Origin: a virus
Taxonomy: Duplodnaviria; Heunggongvirae; Uroviricota; Caudoviricetes
IMG/VR virus record: IMGVR_UViG_3300029190_000051
Direction: 5' to 3' (one strand)
Length of the DNA stretch: 18,378 nt
Shown: positions 1,396-18,378 of the stretch, piece after piece
Layout: each line of letters starts with the position of its first letter
How positions within the stretch are numbered: position 1 is the stretch's first letter
Notes under the pieces: model-generated
Database searches by the model: none
Told to the model about the DNA's origin: nothing
What the model saw: only the letters and a program-made list of their open reading frames with translations
Translations under genes and position numbers: made by a program

Positions 1396-1397
1396 TG

Positions 1398-2330: not shown

Positions 2331-2333
2331 AAA

Positions 2334-2367: not shown

Positions 2368-2474
2368 AACCATTCAATTTTTTCTCTAAATCACATTAAA
2401 AGATTCTTCACCTTCGCTGCTTCAGAATACATTTCAACGATAACGAAGTGAGCGGTAATTAAGGTACAGCCTAT

Positions 2475-3124: not shown

Positions 3125-4538
3125 TTATCTGCACGGTGTAGAAACTATTGAAATTGAAACCGGCCCGCGTCCGGTTAAAGCGGTAAAATCCGCCGTCATC
3201 GCTTTAATCGGTACATCCCCCTGCGGTCCGGTAAATAAACCAACATTATGCCTTTCTGAAAGCGATGCTGCGCAGTTTGGCTCGACTCAGGCTAACTTTA
3301 CGATCCCACAGGCACTGAAGGCAATTTATGACCACGGTGCCGGTACGGTGGTGGTGATTAACGTGCTGGATCCGGCAAAACATGGCTCCAACATCAGCAA
3401 TGAGAGTATCACTTTTGATGCTAACAACCAGGCGAAGCTCGCTCACCGCAATGTGCGTAACGTGGTACTAAAGCCCTCTTCATCAAATTCATCAACCTTT
3501 AACACCGCAGCATTTAGCGTAGATGAACAAACAGGCATAATTACCCGTAAAGGAGCCGACATTCCTCCTGGTGCGAAAGTTTGTGCCTATTATTCCTGGT
3601 GCGACCCTACAAAGGTCACCGCAGCCGATATTATCGGTACCGTAAATACCGCAGGCGACCGCACGGGGATGAAACTCCTTCAGGACACCTATAACCTGTA
3701 CGGTTTCTACGCCAAAATCCTGCTTGCTCCTGTGTTTTGTACGCAAAAATCGGTGACTACTGAGCTGATTGCACAAGCGGAAAAACTCGGTGCGATTACC
3801 TACATTGATGCCCCGATTGGGACAACATTCCAGCAGGTATTGGCTGGACGCGGTTCGCAAGGGGCTATCAACTTCAATACCAGCTCTGATCGTGCGCGTT
3901 TATGTTACCCACATGTCAAAGTTTACGATGGCATCACTAACCAGGAAATTCTTGAGCCTCTCTCTTCGCGTGCTGCCGGGCTGCGTGCCAAAGTAGACCT
4001 CGAAAAAGGTTTCTGGTGGAGCAACTCAAACCAGGAAATTCAGGGTATTACCGGTATTGAACGTTCGCTTTCCGCAATGATTGATGATCCACAAAGCGAA
4101 GTGAATCAGCTCAACGAAAACGGCATTACCACTATTTTCAATAGTTACGGCTCTGGTCTGCGCTTGTGGGGTAACCGCACAGCGGCATGGCCTACCGTGA
4201 CCCATATGCGTAACTTTGAAAACGTCCGCCGGACAGGCGATGTAATCAATGAGTCAATCCGTTATTTCAGTCAGCAGTATATTGATATGCCGATTAATCA
4301 GGCACTTATTGACGCGCTGACCGAATCGGTAAATACCTGGGGCCGAAAACTGATTGCCGACGGCGCACTGCTTGGCTTTGAGTGCTGGTACGATCCGGCA
4401 CGAAATTCACCGGCTGAACTCAGCGCCGGGCATTTATTGCTGAGCTATAAATTCACCCCGCCACCGCCGCTGGAACGTCTGACGTTTGAAACTGAAATTA
4501 CTTCTGAATATTTAGTCTCTCTGGAGAGCAATAGCTAA
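3108..4538 (+). CDS. Contractile tail sheath protein
   Basis: 476 aa. Size, position ahead of the tube gene, and conserved C-terminal sheath-like segments (ITTIFNSYGSGLRLWGNRTAAWP) fit a Mu/P2-type sheath. The true start may be the ATG at 3114, which has better spacing from the GAGGA at 3099-3103. Confidence 0.85.
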   Translation: MYMAANYLHGVETIEIETGPRPVKAVKSAVIALIGTSPCGPVNKPTLCLSESDAAQFGSTQANFTIPQALKAIYDHGAGTVVVINVLDPAKHGSNISNESITFDANNQAKLAHRNVRNVVLKPSSSNSSTFNTAAFSVDEQTGIITRKGADIPPGAKVCAYYSWCDPTKVTAADIIGTVNTAGDRTGMKLLQDTYNLYGFYAKILLAPVFCTQKSVTTELIAQAEKLGAITYIDAPIGTTFQQVLAGRGSQGAINFNTSSDRARLCYPHVKVYDGITNQEILEPLSSRAAGLRAKVDLEKGFWWSNSNQEIQGITGIERSLSAMIDDPQSEVNQLNENGITTIFNSYGSGLRLWGNRTAAWPTVTHMRNFENVRRTGDVINESIRYFSQQYIDMPINQALIDALTESVNTWGRKLIADGALLGFECWYDPARNSPAELSAGHLLLSYKFTPPPPLERLTFETEITSEYLVSLESNS

Positions 4539-5062
4539 TGGCTGGAAAAATTCAAATTAACCGTATTACCAACGCCAATATTTATCTCGATGGTAATAAC
4601 CTTTTAGGTCGTGCAACAGAAATTAAATTGCCGGATGTAAGTTTAATTATGCAGGAGCATAAAGCACTGGGCATGGTGGGTAAAATCGAACTCCCGGCAG
4701 GTTTCGATAAACTGGAGGGCGAAATTAAATGGAACTCCTTCTATCAGGACGTAATGCGTAAAACGGCAAACCCGTGGCAGGCGGTTGCATTACAGTGCCG
4801 CTCCAGTATTGATTGCTATAACTCCCAGGGGAAAGCGAATCAATTAGCGCTAGTGACACATTTAACCGTGATGTTTAAAAAGAATCCACTGGGCACATTT
4901 AAACAGAATGAAAACCCGGAATTCAGCAGCGCCTTTGGTTGCACTTATATTAAACAAGTAGTTGATGGTGAAACGCTGCTTGAACTTGATTATATGGCCA
5001 ATATTTTCCGGGTTAATGGTGTGGATCAATTAAGTACCTATCGCAATAACATCGGTGGCTAA
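4538..5062 (+). CDS. Tail tube protein
   Basis: 174 aa, starting at an ATG that overlaps the sheath stop (TAATGG). Size and position are typical of a contractile-tail tube subunit. Confidence 0.75.
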   Translation: MAGKIQINRITNANIYLDGNNLLGRATEIKLPDVSLIMQEHKALGMVGKIELPAGFDKLEGEIKWNSFYQDVMRKTANPWQAVALQCRSSIDCYNSQGKANQLALVTHLTVMFKKNPLGTFKQNENPEFSSAFGCTYIKQVVDGETLLELDYMANIFRVNGVDQLSTYRNNIGG

Positions 5063-5112
5063 GTTATTCGGGGCTACGGCCCCGAACTTTGCAAAATAAA
5101 TAAGGACACAAA

Positions 5113-5430
5113 ATGAAAGAACATTATATCTTGCAGTTTCCATTTACGTCGGCAGCAGGAAATAATATCGACACGCTGCAATTACGTCGCCTGAAAGTAA
5201 AAGATATGCGCAACGCCCGCCGGATCAGCGAAAAGCCAGAAGAGTGGGATGAACCGCTGATGGCGGCGATGACCGGACTGGTGCCAGAAGATTTAGCCGA
5301 AATGGATTTGCTGGATTACCAGGCATTGCAGAAACGATTTCAATCCATGCTTACCGTGGTTACAGAATCCTCCCCTGCTATGGCAGGCAATGGCGCTACT
5401 GGCGAGATGGTTTCGCTTTCCGCCCAGTGA
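5113..5430 (+). CDS. Tail assembly chaperone (P2 gpE / Mu gp41-like position)
   Basis: 105-aa acidic protein located between the tube and tape-measure genes, the canonical chaperone position. An overlapping +1 frame stays open to 5518. Confidence 0.55.
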   Translation: MKEHYILQFPFTSAAGNNIDTLQLRRLKVKDMRNARRISEKPEEWDEPLMAAMTGLVPEDLAEMDLLDYQALQKRFQSMLTVVTESSPAMAGNGATGEMVSLSAQ

Positions 5431-5504
5431 GATAGACGCCCTTACCGTCGATGACTTTAGCAACTGGCTGGATGAAGCCAGCGCCCAAATAAAAATCGAA
5501 TATG

Positions 5505-5529
5505 ACTCGCAGACCTGATGTCTGCGAGT
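5505..5529. other. Perfect 10-bp stem-loop in the chaperone to tape-measure spacer
   Basis: ACTCGCAGAC ctgat GTCTGCGAGT. It is not followed by a U-tract. The stop codon of the +1-frame extension (TGA 5516-5518) lies in the loop. Confidence 0.45.
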
Positions 5530-5619
5530 TTCCCAAGCCCGTCAGGTTTATTTCTTCCCTGCCCCTTTTTTTAGAAAAATAACCAGCGGGCCATTATCAA
5601 TATTTAAAGAGAAACAATT

Positions 5620-7995
5620 TTGGCCAACGATATTATTACCCAGCTTCAGGCGCGTAATGAGACGTTGACGCAGGCAATAGCCCGTTACGGCTCACTCAAC
5701 GCCAGAACATTGTTAACTCTCTCTACTCAGCAGGCGACAGTTATCAAACTAACGCAGCAGCTTGCCGATTCCGCTCTCCGCCTGGAGGAAAATAGCCGCA
5801 GCCGCGCTAATCTGATGGAGAAAACCCAAACATTTGCCGGGCAATTTAGCAAAGTATTCAATGTTGAAGCCCCCGACTGGAAGTTGCCGTATGAGTTTCA
5901 GGACAACATGGTCAATATGGCGACCAAAGGTGGGATGAATGCTACAACCCGCGAGACGCTCAGCCTTAATCTGCGCGACTGGAGCATGGATTTTAACCAG
6001 CAGCAGACCACCTTACAGAACGCAGCCCAAACGCTGATCGAAGGCAATTTGTCGTCGATGCAGGATCTCAACCGTTATATGCCGGAGATCGCCAAAGCTG
6101 CCACCGCCACGCGCGAAAGTGCTGAAACGTGGGCGAATGCCGCGCTCGCGACTCATGATCGACTGAATATTGCCCCGGAAAATTTCCACGCCGCGCAAAA
6201 CATGATGTACGGCATTAGCAAAAGCGGTGGGCCTGCCATTGCTGAACAAACGCAGTGGATAGAGAAATTTGCAGGTAAAACCGGCGCTCAGGGTCTGGAA
6301 GGTATGGCTGAACTGACTGCCGCCATGCAGATCGCAATGAAAAATGGGGCCAGCGCCAGTGCGGCGGCGGAGAATTTTGACCACTTTCTGCAAACCACCT
6401 TTTCGAAAAAAACCGATAGCTGGTTCGCCAGCCAGGGCGTCGATCTGCAAGGCTCTCTGCTTGAACATCAGCAAAACGGTATGGGTGTTAGCGAAGCCAT
6501 GACTCATATCGTACAAATGCAGCTTGAGAAGATGAACCCGGCGATCCTCGACACCTTCAAACGTACTATGCAGATTGAAGATTTATCTGCTCGCAGCAAT
6601 GCGCTGCAATCGATGGTGTCGCAATTTAATCTGGGCGAAATGTTCGGCGATGTGCAAACGGTGGAATTCCTGGCACCTATGCTGGCGAATATGGAGGAAT
6701 ATCGCCAGTTAAAAGCCTCTGCCATGCAAGCCACCAGCAAGAATCTGATTAACGCTGACTTTTCTGCGCAAATGGCCTCGCCCATTGAACAGACTAAAGC
6801 GTTACAGCTGGCATTAAATGATTTATGGCTCAGCATTGGTTTGCAGCTTATGCCGGCGATTGGCGAGCTGGCACAAAGCCTTACGACGGTTATTCGCCAG
6901 TTCAGCGCCTGGCTACGCGAACATCCGGCGCTGGTGCAAAACATTGCGAAAATCGTCGGGGCGGTTTGGCTGTTTAACGGCGCGCTGAATGTTTTAAAGC
7001 TGGGCGCGAACCTCATCACCTCGCCGTTTATTCGTCTGGTCGATATCTTCCTGAAAGTCAAGGCAAGTCTGGCGCTCACAGGCGGGGCAAGTAAGATGCT
7101 ATCAGCGGTTAAGTCATTGGGTGGCGGCGCAAAATGGCTAATGCAACTGCTTGGTCGTGGCCTGATTGGCGCACTGAAACAGGTAGGTCAGACCGTCTTC
7201 TGGTTGGGTAGGGTTTTATTGATGAATCCCATTGGTCTGGTCATCACTGCGATTGCGGGCGCTGCTTATCTGATTTGTCGCAACTGGGAGCCTATCTCCA
7301 GGTTCTTTTCGACCATCTGGCAACGTATCACCACGGCCTTTGACGGCGGCATTGCAGGAATTTGTCGGTTGATTCTCGACTGGTCACCGCTGGAGTTGTT
7401 CTATAGCGCCTTTTCCAGTGTGATGAATTGGTTTGGTGTCGAGATGCCTGCAAGTTTTAGCGAGTTCGGCAGCAATCTTCTGGGCAGTCTGGTTGACGGC
7501 ATAATGAATGCCTTCCCCGCTCTGAAAGGCATTATTGATCAGGTAAAAAACGCCATCCCAGACTGGCTAAAAACCACGATGGGTATTAGTACAGAAGGAT
7601 CGGCTACAGCTATTACAAGCACGACTAATACCGCATCCGTCTCCCCCGCGACCGTTGTTCCAGGCGTTGCCGGTGCGATTTTAACACCGCCGGTGGGCAA
7701 ACAACTCGCGCCATCCGGCAAAACGGCTACGCCGTCATCGGCGCCAGCGGCAAAAAATACAGCCGCCAAACCCGTATCTGCCTCTTTACCTGGTAAATCC
7801 GTAACCAAACCGGCGACGCTACCCTCCCGTTCCTCAGGAAAAGTCCAGGTAAATTTTTCGCCACAAATTACCGTGCAGGGTAACGGACAAAACACCACTA
7901 AAGAGATTCAGAACGTGTTGACGATGAGTAAACGCGAACTGGAAAGAATGATTAACGATGTAATGGCGCAGCAGCAGCGCCGGGGGTATGCCTGA
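5620..7995 (+). CDS. Tail tape measure protein
   Basis: 791 aa, the largest ORF, downstream of the chaperone. It has hydrophobic segments in the C-terminal third and a Ser/Thr/Pro/Ala-rich low-complexity tail. It starts at a TTG (5620) after AAAGAGAAA; the first in-frame ATG is about 65 codons in. Confidence 0.85.
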   Translation: MANDIITQLQARNETLTQAIARYGSLNARTLLTLSTQQATVIKLTQQLADSALRLEENSRSRANLMEKTQTFAGQFSKVFNVEAPDWKLPYEFQDNMVNMATKGGMNATTRETLSLNLRDWSMDFNQQQTTLQNAAQTLIEGNLSSMQDLNRYMPEIAKAATATRESAETWANAALATHDRLNIAPENFHAAQNMMYGISKSGGPAIAEQTQWIEKFAGKTGAQGLEGMAELTAAMQIAMKNGASASAAAENFDHFLQTTFSKKTDSWFASQGVDLQGSLLEHQQNGMGVSEAMTHIVQMQLEKMNPAILDTFKRTMQIEDLSARSNALQSMVSQFNLGEMFGDVQTVEFLAPMLANMEEYRQLKASAMQATSKNLINADFSAQMASPIEQTKALQLALNDLWLSIGLQLMPAIGELAQSLTTVIRQFSAWLREHPALVQNIAKIVGAVWLFNGALNVLKLGANLITSPFIRLVDIFLKVKASLALTGGASKMLSAVKSLGGGAKWLMQLLGRGLIGALKQVGQTVFWLGRVLLMNPIGLVITAIAGAAYLICRNWEPISRFFSTIWQRITTAFDGGIAGICRLILDWSPLELFYSAFSSVMNWFGVEMPASFSEFGSNLLGSLVDGIMNAFPALKGIIDQVKNAIPDWLKTTMGISTEGSATAITSTTNTASVSPATVVPGVAGAILTPPVGKQLAPSGKTATPSSAPAAKNTAAKPVSASLPGKSVTKPATLPSRSSGKVQVNFSPQITVQGNGQNTTKEIQNVLTMSKRELERMINDVMAQQQRRGYA

Positions 7996-8948
7996 TGTAT
8001 GCCGTTTTAGGAGAGATTGAATTTAAGGTTGTCACATTCTGGGACGGCTTTAAAAGCACAATGGGCGTGGATTACGCCACACATGCCCGTATAGAAGGCA
8101 AACCCGGCGTGCAGTTTATTGGCGATAAGCTGGATATGCTGGCGCTGGAATTTTCCCTGCACAGCCAGTTTTGCCAGCCCACAACAGAGCTGAACCGACT
8201 GCGTGAAGCCATGCTTGCTCACAAGGCGATGGCACTGGTATTTGGCAATGGCGATTATCGCGGCTGGTTTGTGATTACGGAGCTAACCGCCACCCACCAG
8301 CACACCGATCCCTGGGGCAATGTGATTGCCCAAAACGGAACGATGTCGCTCCAGGAGTACACCGGCGATCCTAAAAATCCACTTTTACCTCCGGCGATTA
8401 CCACCCAGGAGCCCAACATCGAGGAAAAGGCGAGCGATTTTCCCGACAAGGTGGAGTCCTGGTTTGATCAGATATTAAACGCCATCGAAGAAGGTATGCG
8501 TAAGGCCAAAGAGATGCTGGATGAACTGACACAAGCCATTGAAGATATTAAAAAAACGGTGGCAAAAGTGAAAGCAATGATTAAAGAGGCCAAAGCGTTA
8601 AAAGAAAAGTGTGAAAAGATAATTACGTCATTGAAAAAGACAATCGACGCCATCGAAACCCTGTTTAAACAGCCAATGGATCTGCAAACGCTGGCAGGAC
8701 TCCCAAAAGCGTTGTCGGCGCAGATTAAAACTTTACTGGGTAACATGCCAGGTATCCGGGACTGCGCCAATGACGCCAGTACACTGGTTGACCATGCTCA
8801 GGCGCTTTTCGACGACATTACCAGCGACATCGCCGAAGCGACGTTTGATAAAGCCGCAACGTTGGTTGATCAGGCACGAACAACGGTACAACAAACCACT
8901 CCCACAGTGAGCCAGCTTGCTGCCGCGACCATTACGAGGATCTGGTGA
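7995..8948 (+). CDS. Tail protein, P2 gpU-like / Mu gp43 N-terminal-like, with a C-terminal coiled-coil extension
   Basis: 317 aa. The N-terminal roughly 125 aa (MYAVLGEIEFKVVTF...GDKLDMLALEFSLH...) resemble gpU-type proteins in pattern and position. The C-terminal roughly 190 aa are Ala/Lys/Glu/Leu-rich and predicted helical. The start overlaps the tape-measure stop (ATGA-type coupling). Confidence 0.55.
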   Translation: MYAVLGEIEFKVVTFWDGFKSTMGVDYATHARIEGKPGVQFIGDKLDMLALEFSLHSQFCQPTTELNRLREAMLAHKAMALVFGNGDYRGWFVITELTATHQHTDPWGNVIAQNGTMSLQEYTGDPKNPLLPPAITTQEPNIEEKASDFPDKVESWFDQILNAIEEGMRKAKEMLDELTQAIEDIKKTVAKVKAMIKEAKALKEKCEKIITSLKKTIDAIETLFKQPMDLQTLAGLPKALSAQIKTLLGNMPGIRDCANDASTLVDHAQALFDDITSDIAEATFDKAATLVDQARTTVQQTTPTVSQLAAATITRIW

Positions 8949-9157
8949 TGCGATACCTTGAACATATCACCACCGACGGCGAACGCTGGGATAATCTGGC
9001 ATGGCATTACTACGGTGATGCGCTGGCTTATGAACGCATAATCGCCGCCAATCCACATGTAGCCATTTACCCGGTACTGCCTTCCGGTATTCAGCTCATT
9101 ATTCCGGTCATTTCCGTCAATAAAACCTTATCGGAGATCCCACCATGGCTGAGATAA
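8945..9157 (+). CDS. Tail protein X (P2 gpX-like, LysM-like fold)
   Basis: 70 aa with the pattern G..WD.LAWHYYGDA...ERIIAANPHV....LPSGIQLIIP, which fits the recalled gpX signature (YYG...ANP...LP.G..L). Confidence 0.7.
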   Translation: MMRYLEHITTDGERWDNLAWHYYGDALAYERIIAANPHVAIYPVLPSGIQLIIPVISVNKTLSEIPPWLR

Positions 9158-10185
9158 GCGTAACTGGTGGCGTCTTTGCCACACTCACGCCCATTTTTAC
9201 CCTCTGGTATGGGCATAAAGATATCACTTATGACATCACACCCTATGTCACCAGCATCAGTTACCACGACAGCATCAAAAACGAGTCGGATACCATCGCA
9301 ATTACACTGGATGACACAGATGGACGCTGGATAAAAGAGTGGTATCCCGGCAAAGGCGATACGCTGGCGCTGCATATGGGTTATCAGGGAGAGAAGCTGC
9401 TCGATTGTGGTCAGTATATTATTGATAAAATTGATATTTCAGCGCCACCTTCTACGGTAAATATTGATGGCATCGCCACTTCCGTCAATCAGGCGCTGCG
9501 CACCCGTAACAGCCAGGGTTTTGAAGAAACGACGCTTTCGGCTATCGCCAGCCGTATCGCACAAACTCACGGCCTAAAGCTGGTGGGCAAAATCGAGCCT
9601 CTGACAATTGACCGGGTGACACAGTACGGCGAAACCGATGTTGGATTTCTCAAACGTCTGGCCAGTGAATATGGTTATGCCGTAAAAGTGACGACGAAAG
9701 AGCTGATTTTTTCACATTTACCCACGCTGCGCTGCCTGGCACCTGTGAAAAAGATCGACCGCAAAGACGTTTCGCATTTCACCTTCAAAGATACCATTAA
9801 CCGTATCTACAAAAACGCCACCGTACAGCATCAAAATAGTAAGAAAAAAGAACTGGTTATCTACACTCACAACAGCCAGCAAAAACCGTCTGCCCGTGGA
9901 GTCGGCACCAGTGCCGACACGCTAAAACTGAACAGTCGGGCGACGGACGTTGGCGCAGCACAGGCAAAAGCCAACGCTGCACTCGACAGCCACAACGAAT
10001 ATCAGCAAACCGGAACGCTCACAATGATGGGCTGCCCGGAACTGACGGCGGGCAATAAAATCGAGCTAACCGATTTTGGCGTGCTTTCCGGTCAATGGCT
10101 AATTGATAAATCGACTCACAGTTTTGTGCGCAGCGGCTATACCACTGAAATCGACGTGTCGCGCGGGCCAGCGACCAGCCAGTAA
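9145..10185 (+). CDS. Baseplate hub protein (P2 gpD-like / Mu gp44-like)
   Basis: 346 aa, in the conserved U-X-D position after the tape measure. Size and order support the call. Confidence 0.7.
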   Translation: MAEISVTGGVFATLTPIFTLWYGHKDITYDITPYVTSISYHDSIKNESDTIAITLDDTDGRWIKEWYPGKGDTLALHMGYQGEKLLDCGQYIIDKIDISAPPSTVNIDGIATSVNQALRTRNSQGFEETTLSAIASRIAQTHGLKLVGKIEPLTIDRVTQYGETDVGFLKRLASEYGYAVKVTTKELIFSHLPTLRCLAPVKKIDRKDVSHFTFKDTINRIYKNATVQHQNSKKKELVIYTHNSQQKPSARGVGTSADTLKLNSRATDVGAAQAKANAALDSHNEYQQTGTLTMMGCPELTAGNKIELTDFGVLSGQWLIDKSTHSFVRSGYTTEIDVSRGPATSQ

Positions 10186-10194
10186 GGAGGAAAT

Positions 10195-10896
10195 ATGAAA
10201 GGAGTAACCCGTCAAACGGGGATTATCAGCGATATTGACGAAACCAGCGTTCGGGTGCGGGTCACGCTCCCGGAGTGTGACAATCTGAAGAGCAACTGGC
10301 TTGCGGTACTTCAACGCAATTCCCAGGACAATAAAGACTACTGGCTACCGGATATGGGCGAGCAAGTGGAAGTTCTGCTGGACAATAACGGTGAAGATGG
10401 CGTGGTGCTGGGCGCAGTTTATTCTACGGTTGACACCGCGCCTGTAGCCTCGCGCGACAAACGTTACGTCCAGTTTTCTGATGGCGCAGCGTTTGAATAT
10501 GACCGCAGCACGCACCAGCTGACGATCAACGGCGGTATCGAGAAAATCGTGATTGAGGTTATCAACGGTACCTGCCTGACATCGCCCAACGTTGAGATTA
10601 AAGCCCAACAGGTCACCGTGACTTCCGATACCGTCGATGTTAAAGCGACCGATGTCAGCATCGACGCCACTAAGGTCGAGGTTAAAGCAGCAGCAGTGAC
10701 GGTAGATGCGCCCATGAGCACCTTTACTGGCAACGTCACGGTAATGAAAAAACTCACCTGGCTTGGCGGGATGGCAGGAAGTGGAGGCATCGGTAACGCA
10801 GCCACGATAACCGGCAATGTCAACGTGATCGGCAACGTTCAGGCCAGCGGCGCATTGCAGGACAGCGGTGGCAACTCCAACCACCATTCACACTGA
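10195..10896 (+). CDS. Baseplate central spike (P2 gpV-like / gp5-VgrG-like) with a His-rich C-terminal tip
   Basis: 233 aa. The N-terminal region is OB-fold-like, followed by repetitive beta-strand-like V/T/D-rich segments (VTVTSDTVDVKATDVSIDATKVEVKAAAVTVDA). The C-terminus is ...GGNSNHHSH, consistent with an apex metal-binding His motif. Confidence 0.75.
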   Translation: MKGVTRQTGIISDIDETSVRVRVTLPECDNLKSNWLAVLQRNSQDNKDYWLPDMGEQVEVLLDNNGEDGVVLGAVYSTVDTAPVASRDKRYVQFSDGAAFEYDRSTHQLTINGGIEKIVIEVINGTCLTSPNVEIKAQQVTVTSDTVDVKATDVSIDATKVEVKAAAVTVDAPMSTFTGNVTVMKKLTWLGGMAGSGGIGNAATITGNVNVIGNVQASGALQDSGGNSNHHSH

Positions 10897-10902
10897 CGTT
10901 TA

Positions 10903-10931
10903 ACCCGCCTGATGGCGGGTTTTCTCTTTTT
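10903..10931 (+). terminator. Rho-independent terminator-like hairpin between the spike and wedge genes
   Basis: ACCCGCC tgat GGCGGGT followed by TTTCTCTTTTT. Confidence 0.5.
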
Positions 10932-10994
10932 AATCAATCAGTTTTCTAAATCGCTTTAATATCTCCACAGCCCGTTCAGGGCGAAAATACCCTC

Positions 10995-11354
10995 ATGAAC
11001 ACAAAAACACGCCCCTCAACGCTGCACTGGCAACCGGCCTTGCTGCGGCCTGAAGAATACGTCTGCGGACTGGATGATATTCACCAGGCAATACACATCA
11101 TTCTGCGTACACCGCGCGGCAGTGATCCCCACAGACCGCTGTTTGGCAGCAACTTGTGGCACTACATCGATTACCCCATCGAGCGGGCTATCCCGCATGT
11201 GGTACGGGAGTCGGTGGAAGCCATCCGCCAGTGGGAACCGCGCTGTCGGTTGCTGAAGGTGACACCAGTAATCGACGGCGAACATCTGACGTTACGTGTG
11301 CAATGGCGCGCCGCTGACGGCGTTATCAACTCAACGGAGGTGTTATGGCGATAG
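10995..11354 (+). CDS. Baseplate wedge protein (P2 gpW-like / T4 gp25-like)
   Basis: 119 aa with IHIILRTPRGSDPHRPLFGSNLWHYID...IRQWEPRCRL, which fits the recalled gpW/gp25 pattern (ILRTP.GSR...YGS.L...WEPR). Confidence 0.8.
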   Translation: MNTKTRPSTLHWQPALLRPEEYVCGLDDIHQAIHIILRTPRGSDPHRPLFGSNLWHYIDYPIERAIPHVVRESVEAIRQWEPRCRLLKVTPVIDGEHLTLRVQWRAADGVINSTEVLWR

Positions 11355-12460
11355 CCGAACCCAATTTTATTGACCGCGATCCTGCGCAAATTACCAGTGA
11401 GATGATTGCGCAATACGAAGATGCCAGTGGTAAAAAACTCTATCCGGCACAGGCTGAGCGGTTGCTCATCGACCTGTTTGCCTATCGTGAAAACCTTGTA
11501 CGCATCGCCATTCAGGAAGCGGCGAAACAAAACCTGGTCGCGTATTCCCGCGCGCCAATGCTGGATTATTTAGGAGAGCTGGTGGGCGTTCACCGTTTGC
11601 CTGCGCAGCCAGCAAAAACGACGTTGCAGTTTTCGGTCGTCAGTGCGTATACCAGCAATATCCTGATTCCCCAGGGGACGCGGGCCAGTGCCTCTGATAG
11701 CGTGATGTTCGCCACCGATGAAGATGTTCTGCTTCCGGCCTGGAGTTTGCATATCGCCGTTCCTGCCACCAGCCTCGCAGCAGGTGAACAGGGTAACGGC
11801 TGGCAGCCTGCACAAATTAGCGCTCTGGTCGACAGGATTGGTCATTATGACATCAACGTAACCAACCTGACTGCGTCAACGGGCGGCTGCGGTGAAGAGA
11901 GCGATGACGCATTGCGCCAGCGTATCCAACTGGCACCAGAAAGCTTTAGTAATGCGGGCAGCTATGGCGCATACCGCTTTCATACGCTTTCTGTTAGCCA
12001 GTCGATTATTGACGTTGCAGTACTGGGGCCGGACGAGGGATTGCCAGAAGGCTGCGTGGAGATCTACCCGCTAACCCTGAATGGACTGCCAGGAATAGAA
12101 CTGCTCGCGCAAATCGAACAGGAGGTTAGCAAGGAGAAAAAACGTCCGCTGACCGACAAAGTGAGTGCGAAATGCGCTCTTCGAGTGCCGTATGAGATCC
12201 GTGCGCAGCTAACGCTGTTTACCACCGCCGATCAGGAGACAACGCTGGCTGCGGCGCGTAAAGCGATTAGCCTCTGGACGCAACAGCGGCAGAAACATCT
12301 GGGGCAAGACATTGTGCCAAACCAGATAATCAAAGTGTTACAGGTCGATGGCGTCTATGACGTTGCGCTGAACTTGCCTACAAAACGTATTTTGCAGGCG
12401 CATGAATGGGCGGAATGCACTGCAATAGACGTCACGATCGCCGGAGTTAGCGATGGATAA
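11345..12460 (+). CDS. Baseplate wedge protein (P2 gpJ-like)
   Basis: 371 aa, overlapping the W-like gene by 10 bp and the I-like gene by 8 bp. Position and size fit the W-J-I baseplate triplet. Confidence 0.75.
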   Translation: MAIAEPNFIDRDPAQITSEMIAQYEDASGKKLYPAQAERLLIDLFAYRENLVRIAIQEAAKQNLVAYSRAPMLDYLGELVGVHRLPAQPAKTTLQFSVVSAYTSNILIPQGTRASASDSVMFATDEDVLLPAWSLHIAVPATSLAAGEQGNGWQPAQISALVDRIGHYDINVTNLTASTGGCGEESDDALRQRIQLAPESFSNAGSYGAYRFHTLSVSQSIIDVAVLGPDEGLPEGCVEIYPLTLNGLPGIELLAQIEQEVSKEKKRPLTDKVSAKCALRVPYEIRAQLTLFTTADQETTLAAARKAISLWTQQRQKHLGQDIVPNQIIKVLQVDGVYDVALNLPTKRILQAHEWAECTAIDVTIAGVSDG

Positions 12461-13169
12461 ATTGCTACCACCGCCGCCGCTTGCCAGCGATGAGCGTTTT
12501 TCGATTCTGGCAAATATCGCCGCCGAGCGTTTTGCCCAACTCGATCTGACGGCGTTGATGGTTTATCTGGTCGACCTGGTTGATGCTTCGGCATTACCAG
12601 CCCTTGCAGAACAATTTCACGTTCAGGGGTTGGAAGGTTGGTTATTTACCACCGATGAGCGGGAGAAACGCGAGTTAATTAAACAAGCCATTGAACTGCA
12701 TAAATATAAAGGAACAATTTGGGCGGTGCGGCGGGTGCTGGAAATACTCTCCTTACCCGGAACTATTTCAGAATGGTTTGAATATGGGGGAAGGGCTTAC
12801 TTTTTTAAGGTTGATATTACACTAGAGGAAAAAGGATTAAATGAAGATGAATTCAATGCACTTATCACATTAATTCATGAATATAAAAATGTCCGTTCAA
12901 AGCTGGAAAGCATTGTTATTTGGCTTATTAATCGAAGCCCAATACCAGTTATTGGCAGTGCCATGCAAGGAGGGGAAGTCATTACAGTATTGCCTCCTGT
13001 TGCAGAAAGCCTCAGCCAGTCATCTGGAATATTTTTAGCGACAGGTTATTGTGTGGAGGAATATATTCAACTACTACCTTATCAACCCGATCGACTAACA
13101 CAATCCCAACCGATGAAGGTCGGCACAGGATACTGGAGCACCGAAATTATGTCTGTATATCCGGAGTAA
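12453..13169 (+). CDS. Baseplate protein (P2 gpI-like) with a C-terminal extension
   Basis: 238 aa. [13 protein letters not shown]...[17 protein letters not shown]...EW.EY...FKVDITLEE...GEVITVLP parallels the recalled P2 gpI sequence. About 55 residues follow the gpI-like end and finish with a similar ...IMSVYPE. Confidence 0.7.
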
Positions 13170-13171
13170 TA

Positions 13172-14782
13172 ATGGCAAGTGAATTTTTTACAATATTAAC
13201 TGCTGCAGGCAAAGCCAAAATTGCCTCAGCACTGGCCGAGCAAAAACAGATCCGTCTGCAAACTATGGTAGTTGGCGACGGTAATGGTAAATATATCGAA
13301 CCGACAGAAAGTCAGACCAAAGTAGTCCATGAGGTCTGGCGTGGTCAGCTCAATACATTAAAAATTGCGCCAGATAATCCGGCCTGGGTTATCGCAGAAG
13401 CGATTATTCCCGAACAAGTCGGAGGCTGGTATGTACGCGAAGTTGGGTTACTGGATACCGACGGCACGATGGTCGCTATTGGTAAATTCCCGGAAACCTA
13501 TAAGCCACGATTACCTGCGGGGGCCAGTAAGCAAATCGTTATACGCGCGGTCATGGAAGTCACCAATGCAGATGCGGTGACGCTTTTGATCGACCCTTCA
13601 GTCGTTGTGGCAACCAGGGAATATGTCGATGACGCGTTGAAAACACATCAGCAATCACGAAATCATCCTGATGCGACGCTGACACAAAAAGGTTTTACGC
13701 AGCTGAGTAATGCGACTAATAGCGATGATGAAACCAAAGCGGCCACGCCAAAAGCGGTAAAAACGGCATATGACCTGGCAAATAGCAAAGCTGCCACCAG
13801 TCATAATCATGCCTGGAATCAGATTACTGGTATCCCTGATGGTACACTGACGCAGAAAGGAGTCGTTAAGCTTAACAATACAACAAATAGCACCAGTACG
13901 ACGGAAGCTGCAACACCAAGTGCGGTTAAGGCAGCGATGGATAAGGCTATTGCTGCGGCACCGTCCAGCCATACCCATGCCTGGGGGCAAATAACAGGTA
14001 TCCCCGACGGTACGCTGACGCAAAAAGGGGTCGTGAAACTTAATAATGCGACCAACAGCACCAGTACGACGGAAGCTGCAACGCCGAACGCTGTTAAGGC
14101 AGCGATGGATAAGGCTATTGCTGCGGAAAGCTGTCCTGTTGGGATGCCTATTCCCTGGCCATCTGATTCTGTACCTTCAGGCTACGCTCTGATGACAGGT
14201 CAGACATTTAATAAAACCTCCTATCCCAAACTGGCAATTGCATATCCATCTGGTGTTATTCCTGATATGCGCGGATGGATAATTAAAGGAAAACCATCCA
14301 GTGGGCGCGCTATATTATCTACTGAACTGGATGGAGTTAAATCACATAACCATACGGGCAGTATTTCGAGTACGGACTTAGGGACGAAATCTGTATCATC
14401 AATAGATCTAGGAACAAAGAACACTCAGTCATTTAATCATGGGATAAAAACAACAAATACAGCAGGCGCGCATAGCCATGATAGTGGTTCTGGCGAAAGT
14501 AGTGAGGGGGGAAAACCTCGGTATGGTACTCGTGATAACACAACAAATAATTTTGGTTCTGGTGAATCAGATCATGACAATTACAAATTTAACACATCCA
14601 CGGATGGAGAGCATGCACATTCAGTTAATGTTGGCTCACACTCTCACTCTGTTATTTTAGGGTCACATAATCATTCAATTGCCCTTGGTTCCCATAATCA
14701 CTCCCTAACCATTAATAATACCGGCAACACCGAAAACACCGTCAAAAATATCGCATTCAACTATATTGTGAGGCTAGCATGA
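13172..14782 (+). CDS. Tail fibre protein (P2 gpH-like N-terminal anchor, tandem fibre repeats, His-motif C-terminal receptor-binding region)
   Basis: Start at the ATG 13172 (GGAG 7 nt upstream), not the track start at 13049. The N-terminus ([28 protein letters not shown]...[34 protein letters not shown]...[34 protein letters not shown]) closely parallels the recalled P2 gpH N-terminus. Three fibre-type repeats follow, and the C-terminus carries [27 protein letters not shown]. Confidence 0.85.
13664..14127 (+). repeat. In-frame tandem repeats inside the tail fibre gene (about 3 copies of about 165 bp / 55 aa)
   Basis: Copies at about 13664-13798 (degenerate), 13799-13966 and 13967-14127. The last two share long identical stretches (AGCACCAGTACGACGGAAGCTGCAAC and GTTAAGGCAGCGATGGATAAGGCTATTGCTGCGG). 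Protein unit: [48 protein letters not shown]. Confidence 0.75.
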
Positions 14783-15486
14783 ATACTTTTACCTTTTCCG
14801 ATGAAGCTCAAATACTAACTGTATATAATTTTTCACAAGACTCCCAAGAATATATCGGTGAGTCTGATGCATACATTGCACCTAATACAGGCTTGCCAAA
14901 TTATTGCACATTAATTTCACCTCCCGAAAAGGTTCCTGGTTTTACTCCAGTGTGGGAGAATGAAACATGGAGACTTATTGAAGATCATCGAGGCCAAACT
15001 GTTTATAACAAAGTTGATGGTAGCCAGCTTATTATTCAAGAATTGGGCCAATTACCTGAAAATGTAACAGTCATTTCCCCGACAGGTTCTTTTGAACGTT
15101 GGGATGGTGAAAAATGGCAACCATCTATAACCGATGCTAAAGAGGCGAAATACTCTGCAATCAAAAATCAACGCGATGCCATCACAACCGATTACATCAT
15201 CATCAACAACCATCACTTCCACAGTGATACAAATAGCCGTATCCAACAGCTTTCACTCACAAAAATGGGAGCGGAGAAAAAAATTCCGCCAGGTTTAATG
15301 TGGAAAACTAAAAATAATGGTCTGATTGAGTTAACCAACGAAATCGCTGCCCAGTTTGAATCGGTCACCATGGATCACGATATGCGCTTGTTCGCAAACG
15401 CCCAGCGTCATATCGCGGCGGTGGAAGCACTGGACGATATTCAGGCGGTGCTCGACTACGATTATTCAACAGGCTGGCAACCATGA
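14779..15486 (+). CDS. Tail fibre assembly protein (lambda Tfa-like chaperone)
   Basis: 235 aa. The N-terminal half ([102 protein letters not shown]) parallels the recalled lambda Tfa N-terminus almost motif for motif. The start overlaps the fibre stop (ATGA). Confidence 0.8.
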
Positions 15487-15938
15487 GTAAAACCACTGTC
15501 TGGCTCGCTTGTTATAAGGGCCGAACAGAGCACCGTGGTATTGCCCGACTGGCTGACTGGCTTACCCGTAAAATCACACGCGGTCATTATTCCCACTGTG
15601 AATTAGCCGTTAAGCATGGTGAAAAGAGATACCTTTGTTACTCTGCATCACTGCGCGATCGCGGTGTACGCGGAAAGATAATGCCATTGCCAGCGGATAA
15701 GTGGGATATGCTGCCGCTCCAGGCTAGCCTTCAGGATGTGGAAACTTTTTTCCGTAAACATGATGGCAAAAAATATGACTGGCGCGGAGCATTAGGAATT
15801 ATTACCGGTAATAAAGAACAGCGCGATCGCCTGTTTTGCAGTGAATTTTGTGCTGAATTTCTGCAACTGAAGGAAAGCTGGCGCTATTCTCCAAACCACT
15901 TGTACGCTTTAGTCAGCAGCTGGCAATACCAGCAATAA
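15483..15938 (+). CDS. Hypothetical cargo protein, last gene of the tail operon; possible permuted papain-like (His then Cys) hydrolase
   Basis: 151 aa, translationally coupled to tfa (ATGA). It has His-containing GHYSHCELAV upstream of a Cys-containing LFCSEFCAEF segment, which resembles the C-[ST]-E-F catalytic-Cys motif of YiiX/YaeF-type permuted papain-fold proteins. The functional call is weak. Confidence 0.4.
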   Translation: MSKTTVWLACYKGRTEHRGIARLADWLTRKITRGHYSHCELAVKHGEKRYLCYSASLRDRGVRGKIMPLPADKWDMLPLQASLQDVETFFRKHDGKKYDWRGALGIITGNKEQRDRLFCSEFCAEFLQLKESWRYSPNHLYALVSSWQYQQ

Positions 15939-15943
15939 ATCAC

Positions 15944-15962
15944 GCCGGGCTTTATGCCCGGC
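15944..15962. terminator. GC-rich hairpin shared by the convergent tail operon and nucleotidyltransferase operon
   Basis: GCCGGGC ttta(t) GCCCGGC lies 6 nt after the cargo-gene stop and overlaps the last codons of the minus-strand gene. Confidence 0.5.
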
Positions 15963-16752
15963 ACATTACCGTTTGATACAGCAAATTATCTAGCTCCCGA
16001 ACATCTCCATCTCGACTGTCCGGTAAAATCGGTGGAATTTCCCCGCGCGCCAGTTCCGCGCGAATAAACGCATGCAATAAAGGACGGCGCAGTCCATATT
16101 CCGCTTCACTCGCACGCTGTTTACGCTCCAGCAATTCATCTATTTCTGCGCGTAAGGCCGCATCCAACTCACTTCCCGCCAGTAACTCGGCAAAGCGCAT
16201 TGGCGGCACGCCTTTTCCCGCTTCAACCCAGCGTACGGCCAGCAGCGGGCGCAGCACGTAAAAGTATTTTTTCAGTCGAACTTCGTCGCCCTGTAAATAA
16301 CCGCGAAAGTTTTTCTGCGCCATCGAATAGTAATGCCAACGCGCGCGCAACGAAGAAAACCACATTGGGACCATTGCCTTAAGCGCCGTTATCGTTTCTT
16401 CATCTTGTTGATAGACCACCGGAGAATCCAGCCATTCTATCAGCGTCGGATTCGCGCCTTTCAATAATCCCAGCGCCTTACGCCACTCCCAACCGGAAAC
16501 ATCTAACTCGTCGTCGATAGGCAGTTCGATAACATCGCGCGGTGACTCTACACGCAGATACCATTCTAGCGGATGGACATACAAAAACCGTACATCGTAG
16601 TCGCTATCGGGCGAGGCAAATCCCCAGCCGCGGCTGCCTGATTCACAGGCGTACAGCACTTTCACGCCATAGCGACGTTCTATTTCTTTTAACTGCTGCG
16701 ATACCCGTTCGCGCATCGCAGCACTGACTCCATTTAATGGCATTTGACTCAT
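15952..16752 (-). CDS. Pol-beta-superfamily nucleotidyltransferase-fold protein
   Basis: 266 aa. VLYACESGSRGWGFASPDSDYDVRFLYV contains the G-S...D-x-D signature of minimal nucleotidyltransferases, with a further acidic cluster (IDDELDVSGWEW). The start overlaps the upstream gene's stop (ATGA on the minus strand). Confidence 0.65.
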   Translation of the reverse strand: MSQMPLNGVSAAMRERVSQQLKEIERRYGVKVLYACESGSRGWGFASPDSDYDVRFLYVHPLEWYLRVESPRDVIELPIDDELDVSGWEWRKALGLLKGANPTLIEWLDSPVVYQQDEETITALKAMVPMWFSSLRARWHYYSMAQKNFRGYLQGDEVRLKKYFYVLRPLLAVRWVEAGKGVPPMRFAELLAGSELDAALRAEIDELLERKQRASEAEYGLRRPLLHAFIRAELARGEIPPILPDSRDGDVRELDNLLYQTVMCRA

Positions 16753-17876
16753 CCTTTGATATTCACTAACCCGTGCAGAACCTGATCCAGACCACCAAAT
16801 ACAGAGATGTTATCGATCCGCTCAGCCACTCTCTCCAGCGTTTCCAGTTCTTTTAAGCGTAACGCCACCGGGTTGTTTTCCATGACTTTAGCGGTATTGA
16901 GTAACGAACGCGTCGCTGCCGTTTCTTCACGCCGACGAATCACATTCGCCTGCGCAGATTTCTCTGCCTCAACCAGCTGCGCGAGGATATTTTTCATATC
17001 ACCAGGCAGGACGATATCTTTCACCCCTAATGAGGCAATCTCCATACCAAATGGCAACATGCGCGATTTCACCTGTTCGCTGACAACGTCATCAATGACC
17101 TGTTTATCTTCCAGCAACTCATCCAGCGTACGCGTACCTACCGCTTCACGCAGTGCAAATTGCAATTCCCGATACAAATGATCAATCGGCTTCGTTAACT
17201 GACTAAATGCCAATAACACGTCGCTGTAGCGCCAGTTGGCGGCGAGGTTAATCCGCAGATTGACCTTATCTTTCGTTAAGATTTCTTGCCCGCTGACTTC
17301 CAGTACCTGCAAGCGGGTGTCAACCACTTCAGCTTCAACCAGATGGTTAATTTTCCAGTACGCAGTCAGTCCCGGCGGTAACAGCGCCTGCGTTTTACCA
17401 TCGATTTTCAGTACACCTACGTGCCAGGCCGGAACCTGCACCGTCAGTATCGCATCGCGGCCTTTAACTGCCCCTTTGCGCCGTGGCTGCAATACCGCAT
17501 TCATCACCTCCGTTTGAACCTGGACTTGCTGCGTACTCATCCGCACCAGCGTCAAATCATCCTCTACACGCCAGTACAAACGACGCGTTGATGGCGGCAG
17601 GATCTCCAGCAAAATACCGTCCATATACAACGCCCCGGCTTCAGTCTCCGACAAGTCGGCCACCACGCAATATCTTTCCACCCACTCTGGCTGAAAGCGG
17701 CGCAAATAATCCGCCAGCACGTCGGGAACTTCGCTGCCATCGAGCGTAATCAGCAAGACTTCTGGCGTATTTAACCAGGGTAAAAGATGCTCGCCTGCAT
17801 GCAGCACTTTGTAGTAATCGCCATTTCTGGAAAGTAATGCCAGCTGATCTTTTCTTACGCTTATTTTCTTAATCAT
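16749..17876 (-). CDS. Soluble SPFH/band-7-like domain protein with an unassigned N-terminal domain of about 150 aa
   Basis: 375 aa. The C-terminal roughly 220 aa have stomatin/HflC-like character (LEVSGQEILTKDKVNLRINLAANWRYSD..., ...AEKSAQANVIRRREE..., ...LRLKELETLERVAERIDNISVFGG). No N-terminal hydrophobic membrane anchor is visible. AGGAA lies 6 nt upstream of the ATG. Confidence 0.5.
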   Translation of the reverse strand: MIKKISVRKDQLALLSRNGDYYKVLHAGEHLLPWLNTPEVLLITLDGSEVPDVLADYLRRFQPEWVERYCVVADLSETEAGALYMDGILLEILPPSTRRLYWRVEDDLTLVRMSTQQVQVQTEVMNAVLQPRRKGAVKGRDAILTVQVPAWHVGVLKIDGKTQALLPPGLTAYWKINHLVEAEVVDTRLQVLEVSGQEILTKDKVNLRINLAANWRYSDVLLAFSQLTKPIDHLYRELQFALREAVGTRTLDELLEDKQVIDDVVSEQVKSRMLPFGMEIASLGVKDIVLPGDMKNILAQLVEAEKSAQANVIRRREETAATRSLLNTAKVMENNPVALRLKELETLERVAERIDNISVFGGLDQVLHGLVNIKG

Positions 17877-18378
17877 TATCTATTCCTTGCTTAATAGCCG
17901 TCGCGGAAGCAGATACGAAGCGACAGGGGAATTCCCTTTTGCCTGTTACCCGGCGTCTTTATCGGCGACGTTATCGGGGATCGCTGACTGCGCAATCCCT
18001 CATTTTTTATTTAATAAGTTACAACCAGTATTCATTTCAGGAATGAATTCGGGAATCGAACCCGTAATTGGCGTCAAAGGCTGACGGAACACGCCCGGAA
18101 AACAGCCTGGCCGTTCCTGGTGTGCCGACGGGGTTTAATCCCCTTTGAAATTCGGTATCAACGCAAAAGAGTTATTGCGAAAAGTGTGCCAAAAGTGAAA
18201 TAACACACTTAATATATTGAATAATAAAGATTTAATTAAATCAGATAACTTGCCGGATAATAATTTGCGTTAAATTTTTATCTGTATTTATCGCTAATTA
18301 TCGAAAGAGATAAATAGTTAAGAGAAGGCAAAATGAATATTATCAGTTCTGCTCGCAAACGAATTCCCGTACACTGAA

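What the first reader, a model, noticed from the sequence alone, without database searches (positions are those of the whole stretch)
13664..14127. Tail fibre gene contains roughly three tandem, near-identical fibre repeats: potential for recombinational length variation
The last two repeat copies share stretches of more than 25 and 34 identical bases in the same orientation, enough for slipped-strand or RecA-mediated copy-number change. Each copy encodes the [45 protein letters not shown] unit typical of fibre shafts. Copy-number variation would alter fibre length and possibly reach to the receptor.
Basis: seen in the sequence. Interest (0 to 1): 0.45.

Follow-up and report, generated by a model that had tools for sequence, protein, structure and literature searches.

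The report
Shaft repeats in a tail-fibre gene
The tail-fibre gene of a headless phage-tail island in E. coli has three 56-residue shaft repeats; related islands carry two to six, with changes at a 34-base identical stretch, an ordinary and slow kind of fibre evolution.

Summary
The fibre gene (13172-14782, +) has three in-frame 168-nt units, all matching Pfam PF03406. Only units 2 and 3 are near-identical (136/168 nt, 49/56 aa). Unit 1 is diverged (about 50% nt, 26/56 aa). The 26-nt and 34-nt identical runs are real.

Syntenic islands in E. coli, E. albertii, E. fergusonii and unnamed samples carry 2, 3, 4, 5 or 6 units in strict register. A 2-unit allele differs from the window by a clean 168-nt indel, and its hybrid unit switches parent inside the 34-nt tract. 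Two swaps of the receptor-binding tip also break near the 3' end of a unit.

The array is not unstable. All 149 complete E. coli genomes with this allele have exactly three units; synthetic 2- and 4-unit queries found none.

The repeats are therefore structural shaft modules. Their conserved 3' tract supports rare unequal recombination and tip exchange, as already described for T-even fibre genes.

In passing: the window is a complete lysC-yjbD island with a lysis cassette and contractile tail but no head genes, so it looks like an R-type tailocin.

The parts
13172..14782 (+). Tail fibre gene (536 aa): baseplate-attachment domain, three shaft repeats, collar and gp37-like receptor-binding tip
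   Evidence: ORF and translation. Pfam PF12571, PF03406 x3 and PF07484. Annotated 'phage tail protein' WP_022646408.1 in 100%-identical E. coli genomes.
13172..13630 (+). N-terminal 'tail-collar fibre' domain (aa 1-153), constant part of the fibre
   Evidence: PF12571, E=2.1e-59, aa 1-149. DNA is 87-98% identical in all orthologous islands whatever the copy number or tip.
13631..13798 (+). Repeat unit 1 (aa 154-209), diverged copy without the HxHxW head
   Evidence: 82-85/168 nt and 26/56 aa identical to units 2 and 3. Matches PF03406 at aa 169-208. Aligns to Mu gpS residues 99-158 in 5YVQ/8JU3.
13799..13966 (+). Repeat unit 2 (aa 210-265)
   Evidence: TRF and the repeat finder. 136/168 nt and 49/56 aa identical to unit 3.
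13967..14134 (+). Repeat unit 3 (aa 266-321); its last 8 nt (AESC) join it to the collar/tip instead of to another unit
   Evidence: Identical to unit 3 of the 5-unit E. fergusonii allele at 160/160 nt, then 8/8 different in the tail.
13889..13914 (+). 26-nt tract identical in units 2 and 3 (second copy 14057-14082)
13925..13958 (+). 34-nt tract identical in units 2 and 3 (second copy 14093-14126); inferred crossover site for the unit indel and for tip exchange
   Evidence: Parental switches of the hybrid units L002_c2 and L007_c3 fall in this interval. The Q/L004 and L005/L006 homology breakpoints lie at or next to it.
14120..14782 (+). Collar plus needle receptor-binding tip homologous to T4 gp37, with HxH motifs; contains a hypervariable stretch
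   Evidence: 2XGF E=3.1e-66, aa 317-536. PF07484. Gene nt about 1200-1500 is only 35-60% identical between otherwise 95-100% identical alleles.
14779..15486 (+). Tail fibre assembly chaperone, co-varies with tip type
   Evidence: PF02413 and PF14301, phrog_105 and phrog_1807. A different chaperone (217 aa or 172 aa) accompanies the other tips in L004 and L006.
12453..13169 (+). Baseplate protein gpI, immediately upstream of the fibre gene
   Evidence: PF09684 Tail_P2_I, E=3.2e-33.

Best explanation
The three 168-nt units encode PF03406 shaft modules of a trimeric P2/Mu-type tail fibre. They lie between the constant baseplate-attachment domain and a T4-gp37-like receptor-binding tip.

The units arose by tandem duplication and are kept by purifying selection on the protein. 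Their 3' third (...[19 protein letters not shown]) is also conserved at the DNA level. This gives short identical tracts of 26 and 34 nt that are in register with the protein repeat.

Rare unequal homologous recombination in these tracts adds or removes whole units, always in frame. It may occur within one chromosome or with an incoming related allele. The same tracts serve as the 5' crossover point when the tip and its chaperone are replaced by another cassette.

The result is lineage-to-lineage variation in shaft length (2-6 units) and in tip type. Within a lineage the array is stable.

Shown here: the repeat anatomy, the family assignment, the copy-number differences among syntenic loci, the location of breakpoints, and stability in 149 genomes.

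Inferred: the recombination mechanism, and that copy number changes physical fibre length or target range.
For: Anatomy and family:
- Three PF03406 stretches (172.8 bits), PF12571, Collar, and a gp37 tip (2XGF, E=3e-66).
- Selection on the protein: dN 0.08 against dS about 1.0 between units 2 and 3, with 23 of 32 differences at third codon positions.

Copy-number variation among orthologues:
- Loci share the same gene order (V-W-J-I-fibre-chaperone-151 aa protein). Most also carry the RlaP and SPFH genes downstream; L005, L006, L008 and L009 do not. The 3 kb upstream is 91-98% identical.
- They carry 2 units (L002/L003, L008), 3 (window, L007), 4 (L005; E. coli L011/L012), 5 (L004, L009) or 6 (L006).
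- Among the 120 best protein hits, 2/3/4/5/6 units occur in 8/5/97/6/4 proteins.
- Each tip type occurs with several copy numbers: gp37-like tip with 2-4, short 65-aa tip with 4-6.

Breakpoints:
- Q vs L002 is a clean 168-nt indel with 95-100% identity on both sides.
- L002 unit 2 has parental sites 22 a: 4 b before the 34-nt tract and 0 a: 6 b after it (p=2e-4). Three of the four 'b' sites are shared with L004 unit 2, so they are allelic polymorphisms.
- Window unit 3 matches L004 unit 3 at 160/160 nt, then 8/8 differ, then homology ends.
- L005 and L006 are about 100% identical up to the 3' third of unit 4 and unrelated afterwards.

Recent amplification: the inner units of the E. albertii arrays are 97-98% identical (162-165/168).

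Stability: 0 of 149 E. coli carriers have 2 or 4 units.

[quoted passage not shown] 1996, 1998).
Against: - The direction of each event (gain or loss) is not resolved.
- An intramolecular slip cannot be told apart from an out-of-register crossover with an incoming allele. Alleles that differ in copy number also differ in the hypervariable tip stretch.
- The 2-unit alleles closest to the window come only from short-read assemblies (Logan/ENA). The 3-unit L007 is a metagenome assembly whose hybrid unit could be a collapse of two nearly identical units. Complete genomes document only the 3-, 4- and 6-unit states.
- The signal for homogenisation of the 3' part of the unit is weak: 19/84 differences in the 5' part against 7/76 in the 3' part, Fisher p=0.03.
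- No structural evidence links copy number to length. The AF2 monomer model was unusable (mean pLDDT 41).
Confidence: 0.8

Rival explanations
1. The array is a hypermutable contingency-type locus. Slipped-strand mispairing or RecA-mediated exchange changes copy number often enough that any culture holds a mixture of fibre lengths.
For: Direct repeats 168 nt apart share 26- and 34-nt identical runs. Copy number differs among close relatives.
Against: None of 149 complete E. coli genomes with this allele deviates from three units, although the alleles span up to 3.6% divergence. Units 2 and 3 are only 81-84% identical, and synonymous sites are near saturation (dS about 1.0), so they have coexisted for a long time without being homogenised or lost. 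From my own knowledge, the identical runs are near the minimum length for efficient RecA-dependent exchange in E. coli (about 20-30 bp, Shen and Huang 1986).
Confidence: 0.05
2. Copy number never changes within an array. Each array plus tip was acquired as one cassette from other phages, and the crossover in the conserved unit merely happened to be out of register. The variation is then a by-product of tip exchange, not a process of its own.
For: Alleles that differ in copy number also differ in the tip. The terminal unit next to a foreign tip is itself foreign: L004 unit 5 and L006 unit 6 match all other units at only 116-139/168 nt. Homology breakpoints for tip swaps lie in the unit 3' tract.
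Against: In L005 vs L007 and in Q vs L002, the indel is separated from the hypervariable tip stretch by about 250-400 nt of 91-100% identity. The inner units of the E. albertii arrays are 97-98% identical to each other, and the 4- and 6-unit arrays are about 100% identical through unit 4. This pattern fits local amplification.
Confidence: 0.3
3. The apparent copy-number differences are assembly artefacts, caused by collapse or expansion of tandem repeats in short-read assemblies.
For: L002, L003, L008 and L009 come from Logan or ENA short-read assemblies, and L007 from a k141 metagenome assembly. The L007 hybrid unit is what a collapse of L005 units 3 and 4 would produce; those units differ at 1 of the first 84 nt.
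Against: The 3-, 4- and 6-unit states are seen in complete chromosomes: 149 E. coli, CP010229, CP117620 and CP099877. The 6-unit protein is recorded on 37 contigs. The 2-unit allele was assembled identically in two independent samples. It carries its own SNPs, and its parents would be about 19% diverged units, which do not collapse.
Confidence: 0.07

Closest known systems
Pfam PF03406 (Phage_fiber_2, 'phage tail fibre repeat') in P2 gpH / Mu gpS-type fibres
   Same: All three units match the model (172.8 bits). Unit 1 aligns to Mu gpS residues 99-158 of 5YVQ/8JU3. The gene follows gpI and precedes a fibre-assembly chaperone, as in P2 and Mu.
   Different: The period here is a strict 56 aa: a roughly 40-aa Pfam core plus a conserved 'AAPxSHxHxWxQITGIPD' linker. 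There is no invertible G-type segment or invertase.
T4 gp37 distal long-tail-fibre tip (PDB 2XGF), and the T-even 'recombination between conserved motifs' and 'duplication of a small adhesin domain' paradigm (Tetart et al. 1996, 1998, as cited in PMC3157838)
   Same: The C-terminal 220 aa are homologous to the gp37 tip (E=3e-66). Crossovers fall in short conserved motifs, and whole-domain duplications occur in frame.
   Different: The duplicated module here is a proximal shaft unit, not part of the adhesin tip. No host-range consequence has been shown.
R-type tailocins with recombining fibres (R-pyocins; carotovoricin, PMC13195805)
   Same: The island has a headless contractile-tail cluster with a lysis cassette at a fixed chromosomal site. 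Its fibre has a constant N-terminus and exchangeable C-terminus.
   Different: Carotovoricin switches fibres with the Ein invertase; no invertase is present here. The tail module is BcepMu/Mu-like (Mor, Gp37 family). Killing activity is untested.
Length-variable repeat regions in E. coli prophage side-tail-fibre proteins (collagen-like EPcl proteins, PMC3368898)
   Same: Fibre proteins there have repeat domains whose length varies between prophages in multiples of the repeat period. One architecture includes a PF03406 unit.
   Different: In those proteins the variable parts are collagen triplets and coiled-coil heptads. Here the variable part is the 56-aa PF03406 unit.

Membership tests
PF03406 Phage_fiber_2 repeat | Match to the curated profile above the gathering score | tested here: met
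   172.8 bits against cut-off 22, E=9.5e-52, 3 stretches.
P2 gpH / Mu gpS-type tail fibre | N-terminal baseplate-attachment domain PF12571 | tested here: met
   E=2.1e-59, aa 1-149 of a 150-position profile.
P2 gpH / Mu gpS-type tail fibre | Gene lies after baseplate genes J and I and before a fibre-assembly chaperone | tested here: met
   PF09684 (gpI) upstream, PF02413/PF14301 downstream. RefSeq annotation agrees.
P2 gpH / Mu gpS-type tail fibre | Trimeric fibre incorporated into a particle | not testable with these tools
   The AF2 monomer model had mean pLDDT 41.
T4 gp37-type receptor-binding tip | Sequence homology to the solved tip, including collar and HxH needle motifs | tested here: met
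   2XGF_A E=3.1e-66 over aa 317-536. GSHSHS/GSHNHS motifs are visible in the alignment.
Simple-sequence contingency (phase-variable) locus | Short units (1-9 nt), near-perfect copies, and copy-number changes that shift the frame or promoter spacing | tested here: not met
   The unit is 168 nt, in frame, and 81-84% identical between copies.
Simple-sequence contingency (phase-variable) locus | Copy number varies among closely related isolates | tested here: not met
   0 of 149 complete E. coli genomes deviate from 3 units.
Invertase-switched fibre (Mu G segment, P1 C segment, carotovoricin Ein) | Inverted repeats flanking alternative fibre 3' ends, plus a serine invertase gene | tested here: not met
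   No inverted repeats in 13000-15000. No invertase among the island's genes.
R-type tailocin | Complete contractile-tail and baseplate gene set plus a lysis cassette | tested here: met
   Sheath, tube, TAC, TMP, U, X, D, V, W, J, I, fibre and chaperone are present, with a holin (PF13272) and an SLT transglycosylase.
R-type tailocin | No capsid, portal, terminase, integrase or replication genes; fixed chromosomal site | tested here: met
   The island fills lysC to yjbD with only the genes listed. The same site is used by the diverged 4-unit E. coli islands. The 151-aa Gp37-family protein is labelled 'portal' by phrog_209 but is far too small to be one.
R-type tailocin | Particles are produced and kill related strains | not testable with these tools
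   Needs induction, electron microscopy and killing assays.

The most novel reading that the evidence does not exclude
The lysC-yjbD island is an undescribed, vertically inherited R-type tailocin shared by E. coli, E. albertii and E. fergusonii. Its killing spectrum would be set by two independently evolving parameters. One is which tip cassette is present. The other is how many 56-aa shaft units hold the tip away from the baseplate, with unit number adaptively matched to the depth of the target's receptor under O-antigen or capsule. The conserved 34-nt tract would then be maintained partly because it allows both kinds of change.
Probability: 0.15. Interest if true: 0.55.

Novelty: new member of a known kind. 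Interest (0 to 1): 0.3.

Why it matters
This is a clear natural example of fibre-gene modularity. An in-frame protein repeat doubles as a DNA homology tract. Rare recombination there can lengthen or shorten the shaft and can swap receptor-binding tips without disrupting the protein.

For engineers of phages or tailocins, it marks a junction that nature already uses: the end of a PF03406 unit, ...[12 protein letters not shown]. Grafting tips or changing shaft length there may be well tolerated.

It is not a new mechanism, and it is not a hypervariable locus.

Tried and rejected
- Megablast of the fibre gene against 50,697 phage records found nothing. tblastn found only mosaic relatives.
- The AlphaFold2 monomer model of the fibre was unusable (mean pLDDT 41, pTM 0.27). 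I therefore ran no fold search and make no claim about length per unit. Only a recurrent helix at the end of each unit was seen, at low confidence.
- The genome-contig scan with the N-terminal domain returned only 7 loci, with 0-1 units in the named species and weaker PF03406-like arrays in an alphaproteobacterial MAG. It added little.
- Literature searches for Phage_fiber_2, PF03406, repeat number and fibre length found no study of copy-number variation of this repeat. One search failed on a term that was too short.
- The E. coli ST131 'tailocin' paper (PMC9205054) describes a different element, a complete P2-like prophage.
- There are no Chi sites inside the fibre gene.
- There are no inverted repeats and no invertase gene, so DNA inversion is rejected.
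- The PADLOC scan of the RlaP, SPFH and 151-aa proteins found nothing.
- The minus-strand ORFs over the repeats (13655-14023, 13819-14061) are treated as spurious. The pattern of differences between units fits the + frame (dN/dS about 0.08).
- Homogenisation of the unit 3' part by gene conversion is only weakly suggested (p=0.03) and is not claimed.

Full report
**What is in the sequence**

The finding lies inside one ORF, 13172-14782 on the + strand (536 aa). The ATG sits 2 nt after the stop of the upstream gene.

Tandem Repeats Finder reports one strong array in the window: 13797-14126, period 168, 2.0 copies, 83% matches, score 478. The repeat finder adds a 57-nt core that occurs three times at exactly 168-nt spacing.

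In codon register the units are 13631-13798, 13799-13966 and 13967-14134.
- Units 2 and 3 share 136/168 nt and 49/56 residues.
- Of their differing codons, 17 are synonymous and 7 are not. 23 of the 32 nucleotide differences are at third codon positions, giving NG86 dN 0.08 and dS about 1.0.
- Their longest identical runs are 26 nt (13889-13914 / 14057-14082) and 34 nt (13925-13958 / 14093-14126).
- Unit 1 is much more diverged (82-85/168 nt, 26/56 aa) and lacks the SHxHAWxQITGIP head.

It describes two similar units plus one old one, not three near-identical ones.

**What the gene is**

Pfam gives the following:
- PF12571 (tail-collar fibre N-terminal domain, E=2e-59, aa 1-149)
- three stretches of PF03406 Phage_fiber_2 (172.8 bits, cut-off 22)
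- PF07484 Collar

The last 220 residues are homologous to the crystallised receptor-binding tip of T4 gp37 (2XGF, E=3e-66), including the GSHxHS motifs. Unit 1 aligns to residues 99-158 of the Mu fibre gpS (5YVQ, 8JU3).

Upstream is gpI (PF09684). Downstream is a fibre-assembly chaperone (PF02413/PF14301; phrog_105).

The protein is therefore a mosaic P2/Mu-type fibre: constant attachment domain, repeat shaft, gp37-like tip.

**Where it sits**

The fibre gene is 100% identical in many complete E. coli chromosomes and is present in 149 of 5,426 genomes.

In strain ST648 the annotated neighbourhood shows that the window is the whole island between lysC and yjbD/rluF. In order, it holds:
- a Mor activator, a holin, an SLT transglycosylase and a small membrane protein
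- a BcepMu Gp37-family protein
- sheath, tube, chaperone, tape measure, U, X, D, V, W, J, I, the fibre and its chaperone
- a 151-aa protein
- an RlaP nucleotidyltransferase and an SPFH/slipin protein on the other strand

Pfam scans of the window's own ORFs agree. There are no capsid, portal, terminase, integrase or replication genes. This is the gene content of an R-type tailocin rather than a prophage. Activity is untested.

I found no paper on this island in the library. The published ST131 'tailocin' is a different, complete P2-like prophage.

**Is copy number variable? Within the lineage, no**

A 1,001-nt query spanning the array matched 149 genomes. All 60 rows sampled evenly down the ranking were single colinear pieces with no change of array length, at identities from 100% down to 96.4%.

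A 168-nt indel could hide between sampled rows, so I built synthetic 2-unit and 4-unit alleles with the crossover in the 34-nt tract and searched with them.
- In both searches the best-ranked records were ordinary 3-unit genomes, matched in two pieces over a 1,001-nt span.
- No record matched either synthetic allele in one piece.

All 149 carriers therefore have three units.

**Across lineages, yes**

A protein search returned thousands of relatives. Among the best 120, a profile built from the three units counts 2, 3, 4, 5 or 6 units in 8, 5, 97, 6 and 4 proteins, always in a 56-aa register.

I fetched the DNA for eight of them. All share the gene order V-W-J-I-fibre-chaperone-151 aa protein. 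L002, L003, L004 and L007 also carry RlaP and SPFH downstream; L005, L006, L008 and L009 do not. The 3 kb upstream is 91-98% identical to the window. They are orthologous islands.

| Units | Loci |
|---|---|
| 2 | L002/L003, L008 |
| 3 | window, L007 |
| 4 | E. albertii CP117620 (L005) |
| 5 | E. fergusonii (L004), L009 |
| 6 | E. albertii CP099877 (L006) |

In E. coli itself, a further 46 genomes hold a diverged copy of the island (about 89% identical) at the same site. The two I examined have 4 units and a glycine-rich tip.

Each tip type occurs with several unit numbers: the gp37-like tip with 2, 3 or 4, and a short 65-aa tip with 4, 5 or 6.

**Where the changes happened**

*Window vs L002.* The pairwise profile shows 95-100% identity on both sides of one clean 168-nt gap.
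- At sites that distinguish the window's units 2 and 3, L002's second unit is unit-2-like at 22 of 26 sites before the 34-nt tract and unit-3-like at 6 of 6 after it (Fisher p=2e-4).
- Three of the four exceptions are shared with unit 2 of L004, so they are allelic polymorphisms.
- This is the product expected from an unequal exchange inside the 34-nt tract, or its reverse, a duplication.

*L005 (4 units) vs L007 (3 units).* The same pattern appears, with about 100% identical flanks. L007 is a short-read metagenome assembly and its hybrid unit could be a collapse, so I give it little weight.

*Tip replacements.* These break in the same place.
- The window's unit 3 equals L004's unit 3 at 160/160 nt, differs at 8/8 nt of the tail, and homology ends there.
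- L005 and L006 are about 100% identical up to the 3' third of unit 4 and unrelated beyond.
- The unit adjoining a foreign tip is itself foreign (116-139/168 to all other units).

*Recent amplification.* The inner units of the E. albertii arrays are 97-98% identical to each other, which indicates recent local amplification.

**Mechanism, and what is inferred**

Shown: an in-frame protein repeat whose 3' third is conserved as DNA; whole-unit differences among orthologues; and breakpoints for both indels and tip swaps in that conserved third.

Inferred: the events are homologous recombination, either intramolecular unequal exchange or out-of-register exchange with an incoming allele. Also inferred is that unit number sets shaft length.

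From my own knowledge, 26-34 bp is close to the minimum for efficient RecA-dependent exchange in E. coli. That fits rare events and the stability seen in 149 genomes.

The near-saturated synonymous divergence of units 2 and 3 also shows they have coexisted for a long time without loss or homogenisation. Differences are fewer in the 3' part (7/76) than in the 5' part (19/84), but only weakly so (p=0.03). I do not claim gene conversion.

The SHxHxW motif at each unit head resembles the HxH motifs of the gp37 needle, which I recall as metal-binding in the solved T4 structure. This is a lead, not a result. The monomer AF2 model was too poor to use (pLDDT 41).

**Comparison with what is known**

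PF03406 is a curated fibre repeat. Mosaic fibre genes are well described, with crossovers in conserved motifs and duplications of small domains that change host range. For T-even phages see Tetart et al. 1996 and 1998 as cited in PMC3157838. For tailocins see PMC13195805. Length variation in multiples of a repeat period is documented for other E. coli prophage fibre proteins (PMC3368898).

This locus is a new, well-resolved example of that kind. It fails the tests for a contingency locus (long imperfect in-frame units, no variation among isolates). It also fails the tests for an invertase-switched fibre (no inverted repeats, no invertase).

**Verdict**

The finding is ordinary in kind and of modest interest.

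The more interesting by-product is that the window appears to be an uncharacterised headless-tail island conserved at lysC-yjbD in several Escherichia species.

Noticed in passing
window 1-18378 (lysC 3' end at about 1-168; island genes 223-17876): The window is the complete island between lysC and yjbD. It holds a Mor activator, holin, SLT transglycosylase, a full BcepMu/P2-like contractile tail and baseplate, fibre and chaperone, but no head, terminase, integrase or replication genes. That is the gene content of an R-type tailocin. It is present in 195 of 5,426 complete E. coli genomes (two diverged forms) and in E. albertii and E. fergusonii. I found no paper on it in the library.
   Followed up: partly
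window 15952-17876 (- strand): An RlaP-family nucleotidyltransferase (PF10127, E=4e-96) and an SPFH/slipin protein (PF01145) sit convergent to the tail operon at the island's end. They are conserved in several orthologous islands but replaced by a glycosyltransferase region in others (L005, L006, L009). There were no PADLOC hits, and their role (cargo, immunity or defence) is unknown.
   Followed up: partly
window 14370-14670 (gene nt about 1200-1500): A hypervariable stretch inside the gp37-like tip is only 35-60% identical between alleles that are 95-100% identical on both sides (Q vs L002, L005 vs L007). It is probably the receptor-contact region and is exchanged independently of the shaft repeats.
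   Followed up: partly
L001 (NZ_CP033850.1) 1-14824; L010 (NZ_CP008697.1) 1481-6996: In some carriers the island or its flank is disrupted by resistance elements. In FDAARGOS_497 an IS26/Tn3 resistance region (tet(A), OXA-1, aac(6')-Ib-cr, aac(3)-IIe) truncates the tape-measure gene. In ST648 an ISEcp1-CTX-M-14 unit splits lysC and the tape-measure gene is annotated as frameshifted. In several genomes the fibre gene is annotated as two CDSs.
   Followed up: no
window 6731, 8294, 9579, 11578, 11766: There are five Chi sites (GCTGGTGG) against 0.47 expected from shuffles (1 of 200 shuffles reaches 5). From my own knowledge this is about the E. coli chromosomal density, consistent with long residence in the host. 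None lies in the fibre gene.
   Followed up: no
window 15483-15938 (+): A 151-aa protein follows the chaperone and is conserved in most of the orthologous islands fetched whatever the tip (absent from L006). It has no Pfam match. Its best PHROG (phrog_1128) is labelled enoyl-CoA hydratase-like but covers only part of a 381-position profile. Function unknown.
   Followed up: no
window 610-879 (+): An 89-aa ORF between Mor and the holin has no Pfam or PHROG match and is not annotated in RefSeq genomes. It may be spurious or a small regulatory or lysis gene.
   Followed up: no
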